DNA of 58,940 bases from a virus (lineage: Duplodnaviria > Heunggongvirae > Uroviricota > Caudoviricetes). The notes below the pieces were generated by a model. It ran no database searches and was not told the DNA's origin. It was given only the letters and a program-made list of their open reading frames with translations. The DNA is taken from IMG/VR virus record IMGVR_UViG_3300050821_002544; one strand, 5' to 3'. Numbering within the stretch: the stretch's first letter is position 1; the number at the start of each line of letters is the position of its first letter. The position numbers and the translations under genes are program-made. Below are positions 1,922 through 53,061 of this stretch, in pieces.

Positions 1922-2425
1922 CTATCCTACCTTTGTCTTATTCCAGCGCATTTTCGCAGCCAGAGACATTTTGAGTTTTTGTTCAGAAGTTTTTGGTTTA
2001 CCTTTCATTAGTATACTTTGTGCTTTTCTTTTTTCTTCACTCACAATCATTCCTGGTTGAAATCTAGTTTTGATTCCACCTTCTGTTAATTTTATTATTC
2101 TTGATTTATTAGAGAAACCATTTATTCTAGATTTTTCTCTCATCTGTTCACTTTTCTTTTTACCAATAGTTGCTTGATGCATTCGAATATTTTCTTCTGG
2201 TGTTCTTTTTCTACCTGTCTGTGCTTTTTTGATTGCTAAAATAGTTGCTTCTTCATGTGCTATTTGTCCACTTAAAACCAAATAAGCAATTTCATCTTGC
2301 CAACGACGATCCATAAGCCACAATTGCTTATGGATTTCTGCATGTTCTTCAATAGTTAATTCTATTAGGTTAGACGGAGCATCTGTGCCGCCCAAATGTC
2401 TAGGAATAATATGATGCTTATGCAT
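1922..2425 (-). mobile_element. Free-standing HNH homing endonuclease with basic NUMOD3-like C-terminal repeats
   Basis: HKHHIIPRHLGG...NLIELTIEEHAEIH HNH motif; KKSEQMREK / KTSEQKLKMS repeats; inserted between gp14 and gp15. Confidence 0.85.
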
Positions 2426-15939: not shown

Positions 15940-16662
15940 TTATTTTCGACTCCATACACTATCTCTATAGTGTGATTCATGTGATGCTCTTTTCTTTCTC
16001 GTAATATCTAATTCTTGTAAATCTTTTTCGGATAATTTATTGTTAGAATAGTCTGTTAACATAGAACCCCTCTTGATTGGTATGACCTGAACCAATGGAG
16101 TTCCTGCTTTTAATATTCCAGTATAATTGGGTTCTGTAAAGAAAAATGGAAAATTAATAAATTCAAAATATCCATCACAATCTACCATCCCTGACATACA
16201 TTGAAATCTTTTATCAATACGATTCATCGGTGGAATAAAAAGAACAGAATAATCTTTAGGAACTTTGATTGCCCACCAATTAAGAAATTTCATTGGAGGT
16301 TTAGGTGAAGTAGGATGCGGAATTTTATCTGTTTCTATTTGATTTCTATTATGATTTTCTATCATTGTTCTATAGAACATAGATTTATATGTGACACCTG
16401 ATGCATCATCATTGGTAATAAATTCTACGTCAGCAGCAAGAGGAATGATATATCCAATACACATTGCATCAAGAAAAGGTGCGCAGCGCTTGATAGTACT
16501 ATTTTCCAATAACTCTTTTTTTTCAATTTTTGGAGGAAGAGATTTATACCATTCTGGCATTAGCTTACGGGCTGAATATGGTTCTGGTATTATACCGAAA
16601 TCTTCGGAATGACATAGAAATTCTATCTCAGGAGTCTTTATAACAGACTTCAAATTAAACAT
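15940..16662 (-). CDS. Conserved phage protein often beside 2OG oxygenases (DUF6065-like, tentative)
   Basis: TIKRCAPFLDAM..GYIIPL, KFLNWWAIKVPKDYSVLFIPPMNR, AGTPLVQVIPIKR. Confidence 0.65.
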   Translation of the reverse strand: MFNLKSVIKTPEIEFLCHSEDFGIIPEPYSARKLMPEWYKSLPPKIEKKELLENSTIKRCAPFLDAMCIGYIIPLAADVEFITNDDASGVTYKSMFYRTMIENHNRNQIETDKIPHPTSPKPPMKFLNWWAIKVPKDYSVLFIPPMNRIDKRFQCMSGMVDCDGYFEFINFPFFFTEPNYTGILKAGTPLVQVIPIKRGSMLTDYSNNKLSEKDLQELDITRKKRASHESHYRDSVWSRK

Positions 16663-16708
16663 AATCTACCTCATAACAAATGTATTATCACATAAGAGTA
16701 TGTAGGTG

Positions 16709-18283
16709 TTATTGATTAAGCCATGAGATAGTTGTTGTACCATTTACAACACCACTTCCTACTGTTACAGTTGCCGCCGCACCTACTGAAACAGATTTTT
16801 GTAGTTTAGTTGTAATATTAGAAAATGGAGCAGAACCAGAAGGATTGCCAGTTCCACCAGTTCCAGCACCAGTTCCGGCAGAACCTATAGACCCAGGATT
16901 TCCATTTGCCCCATTTGCACCGGCAGACCCAGGAGAACCAGCATTTCCTCCCACACCAGCAGTTGCTCCCGCACCATTTGCTCCTGCATTTCCAGGAATA
17001 CCAGCAGAACCAGCATTACCTGGAGCACCAGCCCCACCCGATCCTGATCCGCCTCCACCACCACCAGATGCAGCAGAACCACCGGAATCTTGTCCACCAC
17101 CTAATCCACCTGCGCCACCACCCGGATTTCCGGCAGCACCAGCAGTATTACCACCAGATCCAGAACCAGCAGTACCAGGATTTCCGCCATTTCCAGCGGC
17201 ACCACCACCGCCACCACCACCTGTTCCTGCCCCGCCGCCTACACCCGCTCCACCACCTGTTCCGCCTGCGCCACCGCCCGCTCCACCGTTACCATTTGTA
17301 CCTGATGTTCCTGCATTTCCGGCAGTGCCAGGATTTCCTGCATTACCGGCAGCACCACCATTACCTCTTGCTCCACCGGTACCATTAATACCAGGATTTC
17401 CAGGATTTCCTGCTGTTCCTACATTTCCAGGATTACCGGCAGCACCAGCAGAACCAGCACTTCCGCCTACACCACCAGTAAGATTAACTGGCGTAATAAT
17501 TACTACAGAAGCTAATGCAGTTAATGATGTAGGATTACCGGTAACACCAACATTTCCAGGATTTCCTGCTCCCCCACTTTGACCGGTCCATGATGTTGGC
17601 GCTGCGCCACCACCATTTCCTACAGTAGCACCAGAACCAGCAGCACCAACATTTCCCACCGCACCAGCACTTCCAGTGGTACCAGCAGTACCAGGATTGC
17701 CTGCGCCGCCACCGGTTGCGCCACTTCCTACGCCACCAGCAGAACCGGCGACCCCAGGAGTTCCCGCATTTCCAGGATTACCGGAAACAGGACCAACTCC
17801 ACCAAGTCCACCATTTCCTCCAGTTCCATTTATTGCTCCACCACCAGCATTTCCAGGAAATCCTGCTTCTCCGGGAAATCCTGGAAATTGATCGATAGCA
17901 ACCTTTGCGCTTCCGTGACCACCACCGCCTCCACCACCACCACCAGGACGACCAGTATTGCCAGGAGCACCAGGATTTCCTGCACCGCCTGCGGCACCAC
18001 CGTTACCTCTTACGCCATTAGTTCCAGGATTTCCGGCACCACCTGCATTTCCGGCACCACCCGGATTTCCGGCAGCACCAGCATTACCAGCAATGCCCGC
18101 AGGACCAGCAATTCCGTTGAATCCTGGATTACCTGGATTACCTGGACTACCTGTTCCTCCTGCTCCCGCAACAGTAATTTTACGAACACCAAAAGGAATC
18201 GTCCACGTAGAACCGGCATTAAATGTAACGCTTCCCGCTTGTTTACGAGTAATCTGACGTAGGGCTGTAGCAGCTAAAGGCAT
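16709..18283 (-). CDS. Glycine-rich Gly-X-Y (collagen-/polyglycine-II-like) virion protein
   Basis: Long GNP/GAA/GGA triplet runs framed by WTIPFGVRKITVAGAGG and GTTTISW motifs typical of phage glycine-rich domains. Confidence 0.8.
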   Translation of the reverse strand: MPLAATALRQITRKQAGSVTFNAGSTWTIPFGVRKITVAGAGGTGSPGNPGNPGFNGIAGPAGIAGNAGAAGNPGGAGNAGGAGNPGTNGVRGNGGAAGGAGNPGAPGNTGRPGGGGGGGGGHGSAKVAIDQFPGFPGEAGFPGNAGGGAINGTGGNGGLGGVGPVSGNPGNAGTPGVAGSAGGVGSGATGGGAGNPGTAGTTGSAGAVGNVGAAGSGATVGNGGGAAPTSWTGQSGGAGNPGNVGVTGNPTSLTALASVVIITPVNLTGGVGGSAGSAGAAGNPGNVGTAGNPGNPGINGTGGARGNGGAAGNAGNPGTAGNAGTSGTNGNGGAGGGAGGTGGGAGVGGGAGTGGGGGGGAAGNGGNPGTAGSGSGGNTAGAAGNPGGGAGGLGGGQDSGGSAASGGGGGGSGSGGAGAPGNAGSAGIPGNAGANGAGATAGVGGNAGSPGSAGANGANGNPGSIGSAGTGAGTGGTGNPSGSAPFSNITTKLQKSVSVGAAATVTVGSGVVNGTTTISWLNQ

Positions 18284-34190: not shown

Positions 34191-34579
34191 CTAATTCTCT
34201 CTAAAAATACTGTTATTGTTATAGGATCAGGAAGTGTAATAATAGAGAATTCTATTGTCACATTATAACCATCACCGGTGATATCAGACGAAACATACAC
34301 ACCTAATACATCGGCTCTAGGTTCAAAATTCTTTATGACAACATTAATCTCATTAGAAAGTAAATTTGCCGTAATATTATCACAAGGTTCAAATAGCAAT
34401 CTTCTTAGGTTTCCACCAATCTCTGGATGAAATGGCTTCTCGTAATATGCCAATTGAAGAAGATTCAATACTGCCTGAACAACGGCGGCGCTTCCTGTTA
34501 CTTTTGTCAAATCACTAGTAATAGGATTCGGAATAAAAGACACATTAAAGTCACTGTATGTGCGGGTATTTAAACTCAT
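34187..34579 (-). CDS. gp25: Baseplate wedge subunit gp25
   Basis: YSDFN.SF..NP.T.D, YYEKPFHPEIGGNLRRLLFE, IKNFEPRA, VFLERIR. Confidence 0.93.
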   Translation of the reverse strand: MSLNTRTYSDFNVSFIPNPITSDLTKVTGSAAVVQAVLNLLQLAYYEKPFHPEIGGNLRRLLFEPCDNITANLLSNEINVVIKNFEPRADVLGVYVSSDITGDGYNVTIEFSIITLPDPITITVFLERIR

Positions 34580-35007
34580 AACCAAATCCTCTTACCAGTT
34601 ATTTCATCCTTTTTCCATGATCTACCTTTATAGATTTTGCCAGGATTTAAATCTCCCATATGAGAAATTGAAATCTTTTGTTTATGAGAATTTGTTAATT
34701 TTTTACCTAACTTAGCCTTACGAAACTTTTCTTTCATTTCTATAGACCATGGTTTGCCTTTATTATTTCCTGGTATTAGATTCCCTTTATTGGCTTTTCC
34801 ACATGCACTAAAAACCATTTGTAATACTTCTTCTTGACCTATTTGTCCACTTAATGCTTTCCAAGCAATTTCGTCTTGCCAATGTCTATACATTAACCAT
34901 AGTTGTTTATGCGCTTCTGCATGTTCTTCAATAGTTAATTCTATAAGATTAGAGGGATCGTTTGATCCACCCATATGTTTTGGAATTATATGATGTTCAT
35001 GTAACAT
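34576..35007 (-). mobile_element. Free-standing HNH homing endonuclease (paralogue of 1922-2425)
   Basis: HEHHIIPKHMGG...NLIELTIEEHAEAH; NUMOD3-like KLTNSHKQKIS; own CTAAATA promoter at 35012-35018. Confidence 0.85.
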
Positions 35008-40158: not shown

Positions 40159-40207
40159 CGATAAATACTACCTATAGTTGGATTTTATATTTAGGAGCAA
40201 TTTCATA

Positions 40208-40660
40208 ATGGCATATTCTGGGATATATCTTCCTAAAAATCCTGGCAAGTATATGGGTGATCCATCTAATATAATATATCGTTCTCTATGGGAACGTAAA
40301 GTAATGGTAAAATTAGATGAATGGGATAGTGTAGAAGCATGGGGCTCAGAAGAAATCATAGTCCCATATCGTTCTCCGTTAGATAAAAAAATACATCGCT
40401 ATTTTCCTGATTTTTTAGCAAAGATTCGAAAAGAAGATGGTTCTTTAATAATTAGAATGTATGAAGTCAAACCATATGCTCAGACTATAGAACCAGTAAA
40501 ACCAAAAGATAAGCGCACTAGCAAGAGATTTATCCGAGAAGTTACGACCTATCTTGTCAATAAGGCAAAATGGGATGCTGCTTCTGCATATTGTGCTGAC
40601 AAAGGTTGGGATTTTGTGACATTAACCGAAAGAGAACTTTTTCCTAAACGCCCTAAATAA
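40208..40660 (+). CDS. gp4: Head completion nuclease gp4 (TnsA-like)
   Basis: MAYSG...PKNP.KY.GDP.NIIYRSLWER, W.SEE..VPY.SP.D.K.HRYFPDF, EVKP, N.AKW.AA. Confidence 0.93.
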   Translation: MAYSGIYLPKNPGKYMGDPSNIIYRSLWERKVMVKLDEWDSVEAWGSEEIIVPYRSPLDKKIHRYFPDFLAKIRKEDGSLIIRMYEVKPYAQTIEPVKPKDKRTSKRFIREVTTYLVNKAKWDAASAYCADKGWDFVTLTERELFPKRPK

Positions 40661-48435: not shown

Positions 48436-48665
48436 GCCAATGTTATATCTGTTTCCTTAATAATCTTAATCTTACCCACAAACTCTACCTGATAACCTAT
48501 TAAGGATTCATCATCGATTTCTTTCTTGTCATTACAAATAATAAACTTAGGAGATTTAGGAACGGCATGTCCTAGTGAGTGAATCCTACCGGCAACTCCA
48601 TTGACGAATACTGACTCACCAATCTTATACTTGTGTTTAAACATATTAACGCTCCTAATAGGCAA
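48432..48665 (-). CDS. Hypothetical protein (SH3/KOW-like)
   Basis: KYKIGESVFV..., probable start MFKHKY. Confidence 0.55.
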   Translation of the reverse strand: MPIRSVNMFKHKYKIGESVFVNGVAGRIHSLGHAVPKSPKFIICNDKKEIDDESLIGYQVEFVGKIKIIKETDITLA

Positions 48666-48693
48666 ATAAAAAGAGGGTCTTGCGACCCTCTTC
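48666..48693 (-). terminator. Rho-independent terminator downstream of the tmRNA gene
   Basis: AAGAGGGTC-GCAA-GACCCTCTT followed by a U-run on the minus strand. Confidence 0.85.
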
Positions 48694-48990
48694 CCGATCC
48701 GTTCTGTTTACAAGAGGATCAAACTCAGTTTAGGCAGCAAGTGCCTGAACAAACGTGTCATCGTTAGATGCAGTTATAGTTTTGCACTGTCACGGTCGTT
48801 ACATACCGGATTGCCTTCAAGTTATTCTACACAGAGTCGATACCAGTTCAAGCCCATCAGAAGCGTTCTTAGCCACCCATTTATGGTGGACAACTATACC
48901 TCCATGGATAGTCGTAAAAACGCTTGTGGTGGACCTGTCGGGATTCGAACCCGAGTGTTCCGTGCCTTTAGTTAAAGGTTAACAATCATT
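48694..48990 (-). ncRNA. ssrA: Circularly permuted (two-piece) tmRNA; tag (A)ASNDDTFVQALAA
   Basis: Minus strand: T-arm TCGGG-TTCGAAT-CCCGA + CAGGTCC-A-CCA (48954-48927) precedes the 5' arm GGGCTTGAACTGGTATCGAC (from 48855); 7-bp acceptor stem with G3-U70; tag ORF GCA TCT AAC GAT GAC ACG TTT GTT CAG GCA CTT GCT GCC TAA (48771-48730); outer limits approximate. Confidence 0.9.
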
Positions 48991-48998
48991 ATCAATAT

Positions 48999-49691
48999 TT
49001 ATCCTTTCTGAAATACTAGCTTCTTATAGCTAAGAAGTCTCTTACGATTAGACGCAAGAATAGGACTAGAAGCAACCGCAGTCATCACGTTCCCTATATC
49101 AGGTTCAATGAACGAATAGGCTTTTCCTCCCACATGTTCAATATCTGCAATAGCAGTATCCAAACCCTTTTGATCTGGAACACCAATCACTGCAAAATAG
49201 AGTTCATCAAAATTCTTAAAAGTAATTTGATTAAAGCCCATCTTCGCAGCAACATGCGCTGCCTGTACCAATTGATACTCAGGAGAAATATCCTGTCTCA
49301 CAAAGATATAAGAATAGTGTCTCTTCTGTTCTTCCTGAGTGATCTTATACTTGTCAAATACATCAGACACAATCTGAGTGAATTGATTCAATTCATCGAC
49401 TGTTTCCAATGGTGAGAAAAGTTGTGCGGGGTCTTTCTTCTGCATCTTGCAAAACCAATGCAAGGATGACAAAAGATTTCTTACTTTCTGCCAGGGTTCG
49501 TTACCGTTATCAAGTTTGTTCTTTCTTGTAATTGGTGTGAATGCACGGCGAATCAATTGATTCGCCGTAACATCCTTTGGTTGGATACTAACCGCATCCA
49601 TTGCCTTATAGATGCACAGTCGCATAACATCATATGCGGTCGTCTTCTTGGCACGTGCCAAGGTTTTATAATCTTCTCTAAAATTCTTCAT
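48999..49691 (-). CDS. Protein with a C-terminal PTH2-like peptidyl-tRNA hydrolase domain
   Basis: YIFVRQDIS...QLVQAAHVA, VIGVPDQKGL, FIEPDIGN.MTAVA..PI pattern of PTH2-family proteins; N-terminal ~120 aa unassigned. Confidence 0.7.
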   Translation of the reverse strand: MKNFREDYKTLARAKKTTAYDVMRLCIYKAMDAVSIQPKDVTANQLIRRAFTPITRKNKLDNGNEPWQKVRNLLSSLHWFCKMQKKDPAQLFSPLETVDELNQFTQIVSDVFDKYKITQEEQKRHYSYIFVRQDISPEYQLVQAAHVAAKMGFNQITFKNFDELYFAVIGVPDQKGLDTAIADIEHVGGKAYSFIEPDIGNVMTAVASSPILASNRKRLLSYKKLVFQKG

Positions 49692-49790
49692 TTTCGTTCT
49701 CTCCGTTAATATGTAATAGTAATCAATAATCGTCTTGACTATTACACACGGAGGACCGTGTACATAATATAATTTCTACGTGTCAGGCTT

Positions 49791-49871
49791 CTACAAACCT
49801 TCGTATTCATCCCAATGCTTTTCATTTCCTATTGGAATGATAGCAATCATACCAGTTTTTTCGTTCTTCAT
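49791..49871 (-). CDS. 26-codon leader ORF (MKNEKTGMIAIIPIGNEKHWDEYEGL, amber stop), in frame with the PTH2-like gene
   Basis: GGAG SD 7 nt before the ATG; ends at TAG; frame continues through a second TAG to ATG 49691 with no TAA/TGA. Confidence 0.6.
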   Translation of the reverse strand: MKNEKTGMIAIIPIGNEKHWDEYEGL

Positions 49872-49887
49872 AATCATTCTCCAAAAT

Positions 49888-49961
49888 TGGTTCCCTAGAC
49901 AGGAATCGAACCCGCTTACAAGAATTTAGAGTTCCCTGCTAAACCAATCAGCTACTAGGGA
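49888..49961 (-). tRNA. Amber suppressor tRNA, anticodon CUA
   Basis: TCCCTAG/CTAGGGA acceptor, A73, CCA encoded; D-stem GCTG/TAGC; anticodon arm GGGAA-CTCTAAA-TTCTT; T-arm GCGGG-TTCGATT-CCTGT. Confidence 0.88.
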
Positions 49962-49969
49962 ATATTCTC

Positions 49970-49977
49970 TATTTATA
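49970..49977 (-). promoter_or_regulatory. Perfect T4 late promoter TATAAATA upstream of the suppressor tRNA
   Basis: Exact consensus 8 nt upstream of the tRNA 5' end. Confidence 0.75.
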
Positions 49978-51412: not shown

Positions 51413-51805
51413 TTAAATCGCTCTTTCATCTTCACATGAAGCAGGAATACGAATATGCCACGGAGCAGATTCGGCATATTTAACTACTGCCTGTGCATCC
51501 TTGAATGCTTCATTATGCTTCTTATCTACTAACATTACCTGACCATCAGCATATGTGAAAACGGCAGATTCAATCAATGTGCATTGAGTAACAACAATAG
51601 CACTCAACAATACAGATTTAGGAATATTATTCGGTACAGATTCAAGAACACTATTATCAGTATTTTGTTCTCCATCTGTTATAGGCATATTATCAACAAC
51701 CTTAGTTCCTGCTGGAAATGTAATTGTCTTACCATGTTGAATAGGTAACGTAGAAGCACAGCCTGCTAGTACACTCAATCCAATAACTGCAAATAGTTTA
51801 TTCAT
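51413..51805 (-). CDS. Lipoprotein
   Basis: Signal peptide II MNKLFAVIGLSVLAGC with LAGC lipobox. Confidence 0.75.
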   Translation of the reverse strand: MNKLFAVIGLSVLAGCASTLPIQHGKTITFPAGTKVVDNMPITDGEQNTDNSVLESVPNNIPKSVLLSAIVVTQCTLIESAVFTYADGQVMLVDKKHNEAFKDAQAVVKYAESAPWHIRIPASCEDERAI

Positions 51806-52317
51806 AATTTCTTTCTATTCCTCATTTTCTTTAATGACTCTTCTGAGTGCTTTCTTCCAAACATTGGATTGTTTGCACCAATTCTTTTCAACAAATAATC
51901 AGCGTTGCGCATCTTTTCTTTAGATTCATCAGAACGTTTCTTACCAGTATTACCATAATTTGGATTTTCTCTATAACCTTTCTTAGCTGCTTCTGAATAT
52001 CGCCTTCTTGATTCTTCTGTTAGAATCACATTAACAACACCATCACCACCTAAAGTCATATTATATCCGTGTTTATCAACCGTTGATTGACATTCTTGAA
52101 TCCAATATTTCTCTCTTTCAACAGCAAGTTCTTTTGTTAACCCACTATCTAATACGAATAATTCGAAATTATCAGAACCATACTTATCTATAGCTGCCGT
52201 TAAGGCGAACCCTCTTTTATAATGTTCGAACATTCTCATTTCTGGTGACTTTTTAGTCAAACCAACATAACATTTACCATTCACTTTGTTTGTGATCTTA
52301 TACACCGAATAATTCAT
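51802..52317 (-). mobile_element. GIY-YIG (Seg-like) homing endonuclease with NUMOD3 repeats
   Basis: SVYKITNKVNGKCYVGLT, EKYWI, GYNMTLGGDG, GRKHSEESLKKM. Confidence 0.9.
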
Positions 52318-52367
52318 AATACCATTGTGCTCTTAAGACTTATAATAGTATATAGTAAAATATGACT

Positions 52368-53061
52368 TTACAAAAAATTTATTCCCATTTCATGTTGAAT
52401 TGTCAGAAACTCTTTACATAGTCCTGACCTTACAATATCCTCAATACCAAATTCAACAAAGGCAAACGACGGCATCTTTTGAATAATATTCATAAAATTA
52501 TGAAATCCATTTGCTTCATTTTTCTTTAAATCGGATTGTCTAAAATCACCACAATAAATCAACTTACAATCATTTCCGGCGCGCGTAATTAAAGTAGAAC
52601 ACTCTCCACCAGAAAAATTTTGTATTTCATCTGCGACTACGATACAATTACGGAAAGTTAATCCTCTTAGATGCGATGTAGTAACAAATTCTACTGTCAT
52701 CTTATTCTTAAGAACATCGTAGGCATCACCACGTCCGAATAGATCGCCACAAATTTCATAATAAGGTTCTTCATATACTTTCGCTTTTTTCTTTTGCGGA
52801 ACCAGGAAGAAAACCAATATCACGAGAAGGAACAACAGAACGTACAATAACAACTTTACTATATTCTTTATTCTTCATCACTTCCTCTAAAGCCAAAAAG
52901 AGTCCTATAAAAGTTTTGCCAGTACCTGCCACACCATGGAGCATCAAATGTTTCCCTTGATCGTATTGTTGAAATGCCAGATTCTGATTGTCCGTTAGCG
53001 GCTTGATATTCCTTAATGAGAAGTGCTGCGGATTCTTCGCTTTCTTGTTGGCTCTTGACAT
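52368..53061 (-). pseudogene. phoH: PhoH-family ATPase interrupted by a +1 frameshift in an A6 run (52785-52790)
   Basis: N-part GVAGTGKT, RSVVPSRDIGFLPG; C-part YEEPY, TTSHLRGLTF, DEIQN, GDFRQSDL, DIVRSG; removing one A restores AKEKAKVYEEPY. Confidence 0.8.

What the first reader, a model, noticed from the sequence alone, without database searches (positions are those of the whole stretch)
48666..49977. Candidate new system: a late-expressed ribosome rescue/recoding island (suppressor tRNA, leader, PTH2-like, permuted tmRNA)
Four elements acting at the ribosomal A/P site are co-oriented within 1.3 kb, between a late promoter and a terminator. Amber readthrough would create non-stop or stalled ribosomes, tmRNA would rescue and tag them, and a PTH would recycle dropped peptidyl-tRNA. 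The island could counter tRNA/mRNA-cleaving host defences or redirect translation late in infection. No smpB is in the window, so host SmpB would be needed. The functional link is inferred from co-location.
Basis: inference. Interest (0 to 1): 0.85.

Follow-up and report, generated by a model that had tools for sequence, protein, structure and literature searches.

The report
Stop-codon-gated phage translation-rescue island
A T4-like phage carries, in one 1.3-kb block, a tRNA that reads the UAG stop codon, a tiny leader gene that reaches a ribosome-stalling motif only if UAG is read through, a tRNA-hydrolase-like gene behind that leader, and a two-piece tmRNA; the block recurs in dozens of phages and looks like a natural sensor of stop-codon read-through wired to ribosome-rescue parts.

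Summary
All four elements are real and lie on the minus strand. They are a tRNA(CUA), a 26-codon leader, a 230-aa protein with a C-terminal PTH2 fold, and a permuted tmRNA that ends in a terminator.

The link is more than co-location. The leader ends in UAG, has a second UAG five codons on, and then encodes His-Gly-Pro-Pro in the same frame. That motif sits on the 5' arm of a hairpin that pairs with the Shine-Dalgarno of the PTH2-like gene.

Eighteen distinct relatives keep this design, 12 with RGPP and 3 with HGPP. One relative has UGA in the leader and carries a tRNA(UCA). Across 111 distinct loci, the gating stop always matches the neighbouring suppressor anticodon.

A permuted tmRNA follows directly in about 15 of 19 assessable close relatives.

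Late-promoter-like motifs precede both the tRNA and the tmRNA, so there are probably two transcription units.

No SmpB gene was found. The phage is not genome-wide recoded. The counter-defence idea and the hydrolase activity remain untested.

This scan found the same design earlier on other DNA. I found no publication describing it.

The parts
49970..49977 (-). Late-promoter-like motif TATAAATA, 8 nt upstream of the tRNA 5' end
   Evidence: Relatives have CTAAATA or TAAATA at the same place. In the window CTAAATA is 10:1 on the coding strand, lies mostly just upstream of structural genes, and is depleted overall.
49888..49961 (-). Amber-suppressor tRNA: anticodon CUA, 7-nt loop, short variable arm, encoded CCA, U1-A72, discriminator A
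   Evidence: ARAGORN; Rfam RF00005 at 51.8 bits. Amino-acid identity not determined.
49791..49882 (-). Leader uORF: SD GGAG 49882-49879, ATG 49871, 26 sense codons, first UAG 49793-49791
   Evidence: A TAG-terminated uORF at this place is found in 17 of 18 distinct relatives, and a TGA-terminated one in L088.
49749..49790 (-). Read-through extension of the leader: four codons (KPDT), second UAG 49778-49776, then six more codons ending in His-Gly-Pro-Pro (49760-49749)
   Evidence: Relatives have RGPP 12, HGPP 3, RDPP 1; Arg is encoded by both CGN and AGA, and wobble positions vary. HGPP and RGPP are reported arrest motifs (PMC12992588).
49695..49758 (-). Hairpin whose 5' arm holds the Pro-Pro codons (CCUCC) and whose 3' arm holds the SD GGAGA (49704-49700) of the PTH2-like gene
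   Evidence: MFE -21.8 kcal/mol, z -4.5. An equivalent hairpin is found in 15 of 16 relatives with different inner-stem sequences, mean z -3.35, Wilcoxon p 3e-5.
48999..49691 (-). Two-domain protein: N-terminal helical domain of unknown fold (1-120) and C-terminal PTH2-fold domain (about 124-226)
   Evidence: The N-domain has no convincing structural match. The family has 2898 representatives at E<=1e-3.
48996..49002 (-). Second late-promoter-like motif ATAAATA, overlapping the TAA stop of the PTH2-like gene, 8 nt upstream of the tmRNA model start
   Evidence: CTAAATA or ATAAATA lies at the same distance upstream of the tmRNA in 13 of 18 loci listed, and CTATATA in two more.
48667..48987 (-). 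Permuted (two-piece) tmRNA gene: acceptor piece to CCA at 48927, intervening segment, coding piece from about 48855, tag frame 48771-48730 (resume codon GCA, 13 residues ending ALAA, TAA)
   Evidence: Rfam RF04321 at 109.3 bits and RF01850 at 106.4 bits; ARAGORN. The G3-U70 pair and CCA were read from the sequence.
48664..48692 (-). Intrinsic terminator: 9-10 bp G+C-rich stem, GCAA loop, T-run. It is also the last helix of the tmRNA model.
   Evidence: Sequence; last helix of the beta_tmRNA alignment.

Best explanation
The island is a late-expressed translation module built around a read-through sensor.

1. The phage makes a tRNA that reads UAG.
2. Directly behind it a short leader is translated.
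3. If UAG is read as stop, the ribosome leaves at the first or second UAG. The ribosome-binding site of the next gene then stays locked in a hairpin.
4. If both UAGs are suppressed, the ribosome reaches His-Gly-Pro-Pro, an arrest-type motif. It stalls on the 5' arm of the hairpin and frees the Shine-Dalgarno, so the PTH2-like protein is made.
5. Two UAGs in series should make the response steep.
6. The PTH2-like enzyme most likely hydrolyses an ester on tRNA: dropped peptidyl-tRNA, or an ester on the suppressor tRNA or the arrested leader chain.
7. The two-piece tmRNA comes from its own late promoter and works with host SmpB and AlaRS. It rescues and tags ribosomes that ran to mRNA ends after read-through.

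Shown: the parts, their conservation, the match between stop codon and anticodon, coding-level conservation of R/H-G-P-P, and the hairpin.

Inferred: the arrest itself, unmasking of the SD, the enzyme's substrate, the timing, and the purpose.
For: Parts.

The leader is conserved in 18 distinct two-domain relatives. The Pro-Pro end lies 49-59 nt from the main ATG in the 17 leaders listed. The motif is RGPP in 12, HGPP in 3 and RDPP in 1. Arg uses CGC, CGA, CGT and AGA, and the third codon positions vary. This points to selection on the peptide, not only on an anti-SD sequence.

The nearest in-frame stop upstream of the motif is TAG in 17 of 18, although TAG ends only 6 of 59 genes in the window. 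The exception, L088, has TGA twice and carries tRNA(UCA) instead of tRNA(CUA), followed by the same gene and tmRNA.

In 111 distinct loci of the wider family, 73 have a suppressor tRNA in the fetched flank, and all 87 of these tRNAs are on the gene's strand. The gating stop type matches the anticodon in every case: TAG with CUA in 47, TGA with UCA, TAA with UUA.

The hairpin is supported.

RGPP is the strongest RAPP-like arrest motif and is EF-P-resistant. HGPP was found in E. coli arrest screens (PMC12992588).

A permuted tmRNA lies directly downstream in about 15 of 19 assessable relatives. Read-through by suppressor tRNAs is known to load the SsrA system. Late-type motifs.
Against: The window has HGPP, not the best-studied RGPP.

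An ensemble test of SD accessibility did not differ from shuffled controls (Wilcoxon p 0.16). RNAalifold on a plain MAFFT alignment found nothing.

The PTH2-like gene has a strong SD and ATG of its own, so some ungated expression is possible.

The protein fails the Pfam PTH2 threshold. In the only residue-level alignment, the position of the canonical catalytic Lys aligns with Tyr139, so hydrolase activity is uncertain.

The tmRNA has its own promoter motif, so it is linked by position rather than by the switch.

Why a phage with a standard code keeps a suppressor tRNA at all remains unexplained.
Confidence: 0.6

Rival explanations
1. The read-through gate works without arrest. Suppression lets ribosomes translate across the hairpin and melt it, which is ordinary translational coupling. 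On this view Pro-Pro is only a by-product of a CCUCC anti-SD sequence.
For: CCUCC pairs with GGAG in most predicted folds. In L009 the read-through frame ends in a TGA that overlaps the main ATG, a classic coupling layout.
Against: The variable bases of GGN CCN CCN fall on codon third positions, and CCACC and CCGCC occur, which is not expected for a pure anti-SD. The preceding Arg is kept through CGN and AGA codons. In several relatives the read-through frame stops 0-5 codons after Pro-Pro, too early to melt the 3' arm by translation alone.
Confidence: 0.15
2. The island is mainly a counter-defence kit. The PTH2-like enzyme would detoxify tRNAs modified or blocked by host toxins, for example N-acetylated aminoacyl-tRNA. 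The tmRNA would rescue ribosomes stalled by mRNA- or tRNA-cleaving defences. The suppressor tRNA would be a decoy or a sensor of such attack.
For: Inference only. Other phage tRNAs are known to counter tRNA-targeting defences (general knowledge, not tested here). The island sits among accessory genes.
Against: No defence or anti-defence family was detected in the parts. The tight match between stop codon and anticodon points to suppression itself as the sensed signal.
Confidence: 0.1
3. The phage uses a recoded genetic code (TAG read as an amino acid) in its late genes. The tRNA, PTH2-like gene and tmRNA would be general support for that code.
For: Recoded phages do carry suppressor tRNAs (general knowledge). 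Some distant relatives carry 2-3 tRNA(CUA) copies.
Against: Long structural ORFs of up to 1798 aa are intact under table 11. TAG ends 6 of 59 predicted genes, with back-up stops 3-13 codons later in four of the five checked (78 in the fifth). The only amber-interrupted frame with a plausible start in the window is the leader.
Confidence: 0.03
4. The elements are independent accessory genes that share a hot spot, and the in-frame stops are chance.
For: tRNA genes, tmRNA genes and small ORFs often cluster in large phages.
Against: The same order, strand and leader design recur across relatives with 30-77% protein identity. The stop type co-varies with the anticodon.
Confidence: 0.02

Closest known systems
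RAPP/RGPP-type ribosome arrest peptides (ApdA, ApdP, ApcA; SecM with RAGP) that unmask a downstream Shine-Dalgarno
   Same: A small uORF carries R/H-G-P-P near its end, in the same orientation as and just upstream of the regulated gene. The SD of that gene is paired in a hairpin whose 5' arm lies under the stalled ribosome (PMC12992588, PMC10951233).
   Different: The motif lies behind one or two in-frame stop codons, so it is reached only after read-through. The input is stop-codon suppression by a tRNA encoded next door, not protein export. The regulated gene is a tRNA-hydrolase-like protein of a phage, not sec or yidC. Arrest was not tested.
Phage-encoded two-piece tmRNA (for example OM43 phage Melnitz and pelagimyophages, PMC9004378)
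   Same: A permuted ssrA gene in a T4-like phage without a phage SmpB, and a tag ending in ALAA-type residues.
   Different: Here the tmRNA is positionally tied to a suppressor tRNA and a gated PTH2-like gene. It is preceded by a late-type motif, whereas the Melnitz tmRNA follows an early promoter. Neither Rfam scan reported a glutamine riboswitch at gathering score.
Pth2 peptidyl-tRNA hydrolase (Pfam PF01981; PDB 2ZV3, 1Q7S, 1WN2, 3ERJ, 1XTY) and PTRHD1
   Same: The same fold over about 105 residues. The R-x-D, Q-x-x-H and (E)-x-D-x-G segments align (invariant columns).
   Different: Sequence identity is 14-21% and below the Pfam threshold. The loop after the Asp is shortened. Tyr139 sits where canonical Pth2 has Lys; the role of that Lys is from my own knowledge of the S. 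solfataricus enzyme. There is an extra 120-residue N-terminal helical domain. Activity is unknown.
Stop-codon-recoded phages with suppressor tRNAs (TAG or TGA reassigned)
   Same: A phage-encoded suppressor tRNA that reads a stop codon in a phage reading frame.
   Different: Only the leader needs suppression here; the rest of the window uses the standard code.
prfB (RF2) autoregulatory in-frame UGA, and the engineered amber-in-leader switch (Liu et al. 2011, cited in PMC6412442)
   Same: Gene expression is set by the outcome of decoding an in-frame stop codon in a leader or early coding region.
   Different: prfB uses frameshifting and senses a release factor. The engineered switch is synthetic and acts on transcription. 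This one is natural, appears translational, and comes with its own suppressor tRNA.

Membership tests
Permuted (two-piece) tmRNA, Rfam RF04321 / RF01850 | Covariance-model score above the curated threshold | tested here: met
   109.3 bits against a threshold of 47, and 106.4 bits against 84; ARAGORN calls it a permuted tmRNA.
Permuted (two-piece) tmRNA, Rfam RF04321 / RF01850 | tRNA-like domain with a G3-U70 pair, discriminator A and CCA; acceptor piece placed before the coding piece | tested here: met
   The GGGCUUG and CAGGUCC strands pair with G3-U70. CCA ends at 48927 and the coding piece starts at about 48855.
Permuted (two-piece) tmRNA, Rfam RF04321 / RF01850 | Tag reading frame with an Ala resume codon, a hydrophobic ALAA-type end and a stop | tested here: met
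   GCA at 48771-48769, 13 codons, ends ALAA then TAA.
Permuted (two-piece) tmRNA, Rfam RF04321 / RF01850 | Works with SmpB | not testable with these tools
   No SmpB gene in five related phage contigs or in the window ORFs scanned. Use of host SmpB is inferred.
Nonsense-suppressor tRNA | Canonical cloverleaf with a 7-nt anticodon loop carrying CUA | tested here: met
Nonsense-suppressor tRNA | Is aminoacylated and decodes UAG | not testable with these tools
   Indirect support only: the stop type in the gate always matches the neighbouring anticodon. The isoacceptor origin is inconclusive.
Pth2 peptidyl-tRNA hydrolase (PF01981) | Pfam model above the gathering score | tested here: not met
   No PF01981 hit for the window protein. 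Only 3 of 37 relatives hit, with best E 0.036.
Pth2 peptidyl-tRNA hydrolase (PF01981) | Pth2 fold | tested here: met
   Foldseek probability 1.0; TM by target 0.64-0.74 to 2ZV3, 1Q7S, 1WN2, 3ERJ and 1XTY. All 30 listed Swiss-Prot matches are Pth2 or PTRHD1.
Pth2 peptidyl-tRNA hydrolase (PF01981) | Catalytic residues (Lys and Asp of archaeal Pth2; their identity is from my own knowledge) | tested here: inconclusive
   The Asp equivalent (D198) is invariant, and R132, D134, Q143 and H146 are invariant. In the HMMER alignment to a solved Pth2 the Lys position aligns with Tyr139.
Pth2 peptidyl-tRNA hydrolase (PF01981) | Hydrolyses peptidyl-tRNA | not testable with these tools
   Needs an enzyme assay.
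RAPP/RGPP-type arrest peptide | R(A/G)PP-like motif near the end of a small uORF upstream of a co-oriented gene | tested here: met
   HGPP at 49760-49749. Relatives have RGPP in 12 of 18 and HGPP in 3 of 18. HGPP and RGPP are reported as arrest motifs.
RAPP/RGPP-type arrest peptide | Downstream SD held in a structure that the stalled ribosome would open | tested here: met
   Hairpin z -4.5 here, and a mean of -3.35 across 16 loci. The ensemble accessibility test was not significant.
RAPP/RGPP-type arrest peptide | Translation actually arrests | not testable with these tools
   Needs toeprinting or reporter assays.
Stop-codon-recoded phage (code 15-like) | Many genes with in-frame TAG that are intact only under the alternative code | tested here: not met
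T4-type late promoter | TATAAATA- or CTAAATA-type element just upstream of late genes, with strand and position bias | tested here: met
   Whether the phage has gp55- or gp33-type factors was not tested.

The most novel reading that the evidence does not exclude
The island is a closed homeostatic circuit for stop-codon suppression.

The leader measures how well the phage's own suppressor tRNA reads UAG. The induced PTH2-like enzyme, with its extra N-terminal domain acting as a tRNA or ribosome adaptor, then acts back on the same process. It could hydrolyse the ester of the suppressor tRNA, or release the arrested leader peptidyl-tRNA.

This would be analogous to monitoring substrates whose arrest is relieved by the product of the downstream gene.

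It would give the 'orphan' suppressor tRNAs of standard-code phages a defined target and control loop. Controlled read-through of host UAG stops, with tmRNA tagging of the products, would then be a deliberate late-infection programme.
Probability: 0.25. Interest if true: 0.9.

Novelty: new variant of a known kind. Interest (0 to 1): 0.8.

Why it matters
Suppressor tRNAs in phages that use the standard code have lacked a known target. Here, and in over a hundred loci, the target is a defined stop codon that gates a tRNA-hydrolase-like gene.

In this subfamily the gate is built from an arrest motif that has been studied experimentally, plus an SD hairpin. If that holds, it would be a natural sensor of stop-codon read-through.

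The design can be tested directly with simple reporters in E. coli. It is also a ready-made part for genetic-code-expansion work.

It links three branches of translation quality control in one phage cassette: termination versus suppression, peptidyl-tRNA hydrolysis, and trans-translation. It therefore raises the question of what controlled read-through does for a phage late in infection.

Tried and rejected
1. **A designed 290-aa fusion.** In the window the leader frame runs into the PTH2-like ATG. The frames are continuous in only about 7 of 19 relatives with a scorable leader, close to the one in three expected by chance. I reject this as a conserved feature.

2. **Enrichment of TATAAATA in the window.** There are 4 sites against 9.5 expected. 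I replaced this test with the position and strand bias of CTAAATA and its conservation in relatives.

3. **Ensemble SD accessibility.** The observed values did not differ from 5'-shuffled controls (p 0.16). RNAalifold on a MAFFT alignment gave no structure. The hairpin rests on per-sequence folds and z-scores instead.

4. **Amino-acid identity of the tRNA.** Nearest-neighbour comparison with 152 phage tRNAs gave no clear answer.

5. **Fold of the N-terminal domain.** The best VIA-align Z was 6.1, Foldseek E-values were above 0.3, and the Atlas TM was below 0.5. These are at the noise level for helical bundles.

6. **Close relatives among isolate phages.** There was no DNA match and no match to the 1798-aa fibre protein. 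Only the C-domain matched a few jumbo phages.

7. **Rho-type polarity linking the tmRNA to translation of the upstream ORF.** I dropped this idea because a conserved promoter-like motif directly precedes the tmRNA.

8. **Other amber-gated genes or arrest leaders in the window.** None was convincing.

9. **Unavailable resources.** No whole genome is held for the window.

10. **Literature.** Four searches for a described natural system of this kind found none.
Full report
**Context.** The window is part of a large T4-like myovirus. PHROG and Pfam matches identify the baseplate hub and lysozyme, wedge proteins gp6, gp7, gp8, gp25 and gp53, the tail tube cap, and fibres. Auxiliary genes include a GMP reductase, a NAMPT, a PhoH-like gene and a PD-(D/E)XK exonuclease. 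It has no DNA-level relative among isolate phages. No whole genome is held for it.

**Observation.**
- **tRNA.** ARAGORN and Rfam find a tRNA with anticodon CUA at 49961-49888, with encoded CCA.
- **tmRNA.** The same tools find a permuted tmRNA at about 48987-48667. It scores 109 bits for tmRNA_permuted and 106 bits for beta_tmRNA.
  - It has a G3-U70 acceptor pair and a CCA end at 48927.
  - The coding piece starts near 48855.
  - The tag frame starts with GCA at 48771, has 13 residues ending ALAA, and ends with TAA.
- **Terminator.** The last helix of the tmRNA plus a T-run (48692-48664) is an intrinsic terminator. The simple scan missed it because G-T pairs consumed the T-run.
- **Protein.** Between the two RNA genes lies a 230-aa ORF (49691-48999).
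  - It has no Pfam, NCBIfam or PDB sequence match of significance.
  - Its alignment-based AlphaFold model is confident (pLDDT 91).
  - Residues about 124-226 match archaeal and human Pth2 structures and PTRHD1 with Foldseek probability 1.0 and TM by target 0.64-0.74.
  - A profile of 37 homologues gives a solved Pth2 as its best, though weak, PDB hit.
  - The first 120 residues form a helical domain with no convincing structural relative.

**Co-occurrence.** The protein has 81 close homologues of the same two-domain length. It has 2898 representatives at E<=1e-3 in the 50%-cluster library.

I fetched 163 loci by three routes: the encoding contigs of three homologues, IMG/VR and JGI metagenomes.
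- Of 111 loci with distinct domain sequences, 73 carry a suppressor tRNA within the fetched flank of at most 4 kb on either side. Many of the contigs are shorter than that.
- All 87 of these tRNAs are on the gene's strand.
- CUA is by far the commonest anticodon in these flanks: 63 CUA, with the next most frequent anticodon at 17.
- Among close two-domain relatives, a suppressor tRNA lies upstream in about 20 of 21 assessable loci.
- A permuted tmRNA lies directly downstream, 0-370 nt after the stop, in about 15 of 19.
- One distant relative (L045) has the same trio with a standard one-piece tmRNA.

**The leader.** Sixteen nucleotides after the tRNA's CCA, a GGAG-led ORF (ATG 49871) runs for 26 codons to a TAG (49793-49791). 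In the same frame come four codons (KPDT), a second TAG (49778-49776), six more codons ending in His-Gly-Pro-Pro (49760-49749), and then an open frame into the ATG of the PTH2-like gene.

I first took the frame continuity for chance. The closest relative, L001, ends its first small ORF in TAA. Notes from earlier runs of this scan on other phages described amber-gated PTH2-like genes, and these made me look again.
- L001 has a second 7-codon mini-ORF that ends in the same TAG-KPDT-TAG cassette, followed by RGPP.
- Across 18 distinct two-domain relatives the design holds. A short ORF ends in a stop, often with a second stop 4-5 codons on. Then comes x-G-P-P, with its end 49-59 nt before the main ATG in the 17 leaders listed.
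- The motif is RGPP in 12, HGPP in 3, RDPP in 1, and other in 2.
- Arg is written CGC, CGA, CGT and AGA. Gly is GGT, GGA or GGG. Both Pro codons vary at the third position.
- This is the signature of selection on the peptide. A pure anti-SD sequence would not tolerate CCACC or CCGCC.
- Continuity with the main ORF occurs in only about a third of the relatives, so a fusion protein is not the point.

**Match between stop codon and anticodon.**
- The nearest in-frame stop before the motif is TAG in 17 of 18, while TAG ends only 6 of 59 genes in this window.
- The one exception, L088, has TGA...TGA...HGPP. It carries a tRNA with anticodon UCA at the place of the CUA tRNA, followed by the same gene and a permuted tmRNA.
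- In the single-domain relatives the stop sits inside the gene itself, 1-12 codons after the ATG.
- There too the stop matches the neighbouring tRNA: TAG with CUA in 47 loci, TGA with UCA, and TAA with UUA. I saw no mismatched pair.
- This co-variation is the strongest evidence that the tRNA and the gene are functionally coupled.

**The hairpin.**
- The 66 nt from the Pro-Pro codons to the main ATG fold into a long hairpin in the window (-21.8 kcal/mol, z -4.5) and in 15 of 16 loci tested (mean z -3.35, Wilcoxon p 3e-5).
- The base of the hairpin pairs the CCUCC of the Pro-Pro codons with the GGAG of the gene's SD.
- The inner stems differ completely in sequence between loci.
- A cruder ensemble measure of SD accessibility was not significant, and RNAalifold on a MAFFT alignment failed. 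I therefore rate SD sequestration as likely, not proven.

**What is known about the motif.** RAPP-like arrest peptides stall the ribosome with Pro-tRNA in the A site.
- RGPP gives the most robust, EF-P-resistant arrest in several contexts.
- RGPP is the most avoided tetrapeptide in bacterial proteomes.
- HGPP was recovered in random screens for arrest sequences in E. coli and is also under-represented in proteomes (PMC12992588; PMC10951233).
- Known natural examples sit upstream of sec and yidC genes and a few other classes, and none is behind a stop codon.
- An engineered analogue exists, with an amber codon placed in the tna leader (Liu et al. 2011, cited in PMC6412442).
- Four literature searches found no natural amber-gated leader and no description of PTH2-like genes paired with phage suppressor tRNAs.

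**Promoters.**
- TATAAATA as such is not enriched in the window.
- CTAAATA occurs 10 times on the coding strand and once on the other. Eight of the ten lie within 120 nt upstream of gene starts, including baseplate genes. The motif is depleted overall: 11 sites against 18 expected.
- ATAAATA is even more depleted, with 10 sites against 34 expected. Two of its five minus-strand sites lie 8 nt upstream of the tRNA (49976-49970) and 8 nt upstream of the tmRNA (49002-48996).
- Relatives keep CTAAATA or ATAAATA at both places.
- Late expression is therefore plausible. The island most likely has two promoters: one for the tRNA, leader and PTH2-like gene, and one for the tmRNA.

**What the island is not.**
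- It is not evidence of a recoded genome. ORFs of up to 1798 aa are intact under table 11. TAG is used as a terminal stop, with back-up stops 3-13 codons downstream in four of the five checked genes. No other gene in the window needs TAG read as sense.
- No SmpB gene is present in five related contigs, one of them 98% complete, or among the window's mid-sized ORFs.

**Mechanism proposed.**
1. Late in infection the suppressor tRNA accumulates.
2. Ribosomes on the leader either terminate at UAG, leaving the gene off, or read through both UAGs.
3. Ribosomes that read through reach HGPP and stall on the hairpin's 5' arm.
4. The SD is freed and the PTH2-like protein is made.
5. The tmRNA, made alongside, rescues ribosomes that read through natural UAG stops and reach mRNA ends. 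This consequence of suppressor tRNAs was shown in E. coli (Ueda et al. 2002, cited in PMC3985003).

The substrate of the PTH2-like enzyme is open. R132, D134, Q143, H146 and D198 are invariant. The position of the canonical Lys appears to be Tyr139 (the role of that Lys is from my own knowledge). It could recycle dropped peptidyl-tRNA. It could also act on the suppressor tRNA or the arrested leader and so close a feedback loop.

**Earlier notes of this scan.** The same design was reported on other phage DNA (e1-5398229, e1-5398226, e1-5363455 and others), and the leader of this very window was flagged separately (e1-5430386). I derived the RGPP frame, the wobble pattern, the hairpin and the L088 opal variant from my own calls (47-54, 84-88, 94, 98). 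The notes agree with those results but are not independent evidence.

**Verdict.** The parts are of known kinds. The wiring is what is new, and I found no description of it: a stop-codon read-through sensor that gates a tRNA-hydrolase-like gene beside a suppressor tRNA and a tmRNA.

Noticed in passing
L088:2541-4114: This is an opal version of the whole island: tRNA(UCA), a leader with two in-frame TGA codons before HGPP, the two-domain PTH2-like gene, and a permuted tmRNA. It is a natural orthogonal control for the amber version.
   Followed up: yes
window 49766-49764 and relatives (L010, L012, L014, L023, L025): An ATG about 8 nt upstream of the GGN-CCN-CC motif is conserved in most leaders. 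In several relatives it is in frame with the PTH2-like ORF, and gene callers used it as the start. A ribosome stalled at Pro-Pro would cover it. Its role is unexplained.
   Followed up: partly
window 4266, 8721, 15320, 29458, 35018, 40194, 53541 (minus strand): CTAAATA sits just upstream of structural and other genes, is 10:1 on the coding strand, and is depleted elsewhere. It is a likely late-promoter core of this phage.
   Followed up: partly
window 51802-52853: A GIY-YIG group I intron-type endonuclease gene (51802-52317) lies directly next to a PhoH-like ORF that covers only the C-terminal two thirds of the PhoH model (52368-52853). PhoH may be interrupted by a mobile element. In relatives PhoH lies downstream of the tmRNA instead.
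   Followed up: no
L029:7690-8138: A GOLLD RNA (Rfam 183.6 bits) with an embedded or adjacent tRNA-Lys lies about 3 kb downstream of a PTH2-like gene, in a relative that lacks the tmRNA.
   Followed up: no
window 1922-2425, 34576-35007, 40178-40660: Two weak HNH-endonuclease ORFs (one at the Pfam cut-off, one just below it) and a TnsA-like endonuclease are inserted among tail and baseplate genes.
   Followed up: no
window 16001-18000: This segment has a G+C content of 0.46 against about 0.37 elsewhere, and a strong negative GC skew. It overlaps a 524-aa ORF (16709-18283) with no PHROG match.
   Followed up: no
window 49035-49018: An 18-nt inverted repeat (7-bp stem) lies inside the conserved C-terminal coding segment of the PTH2-like gene, about 30 nt before the tmRNA start. 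It could be a processing signal or a coincidence.
   Followed up: no
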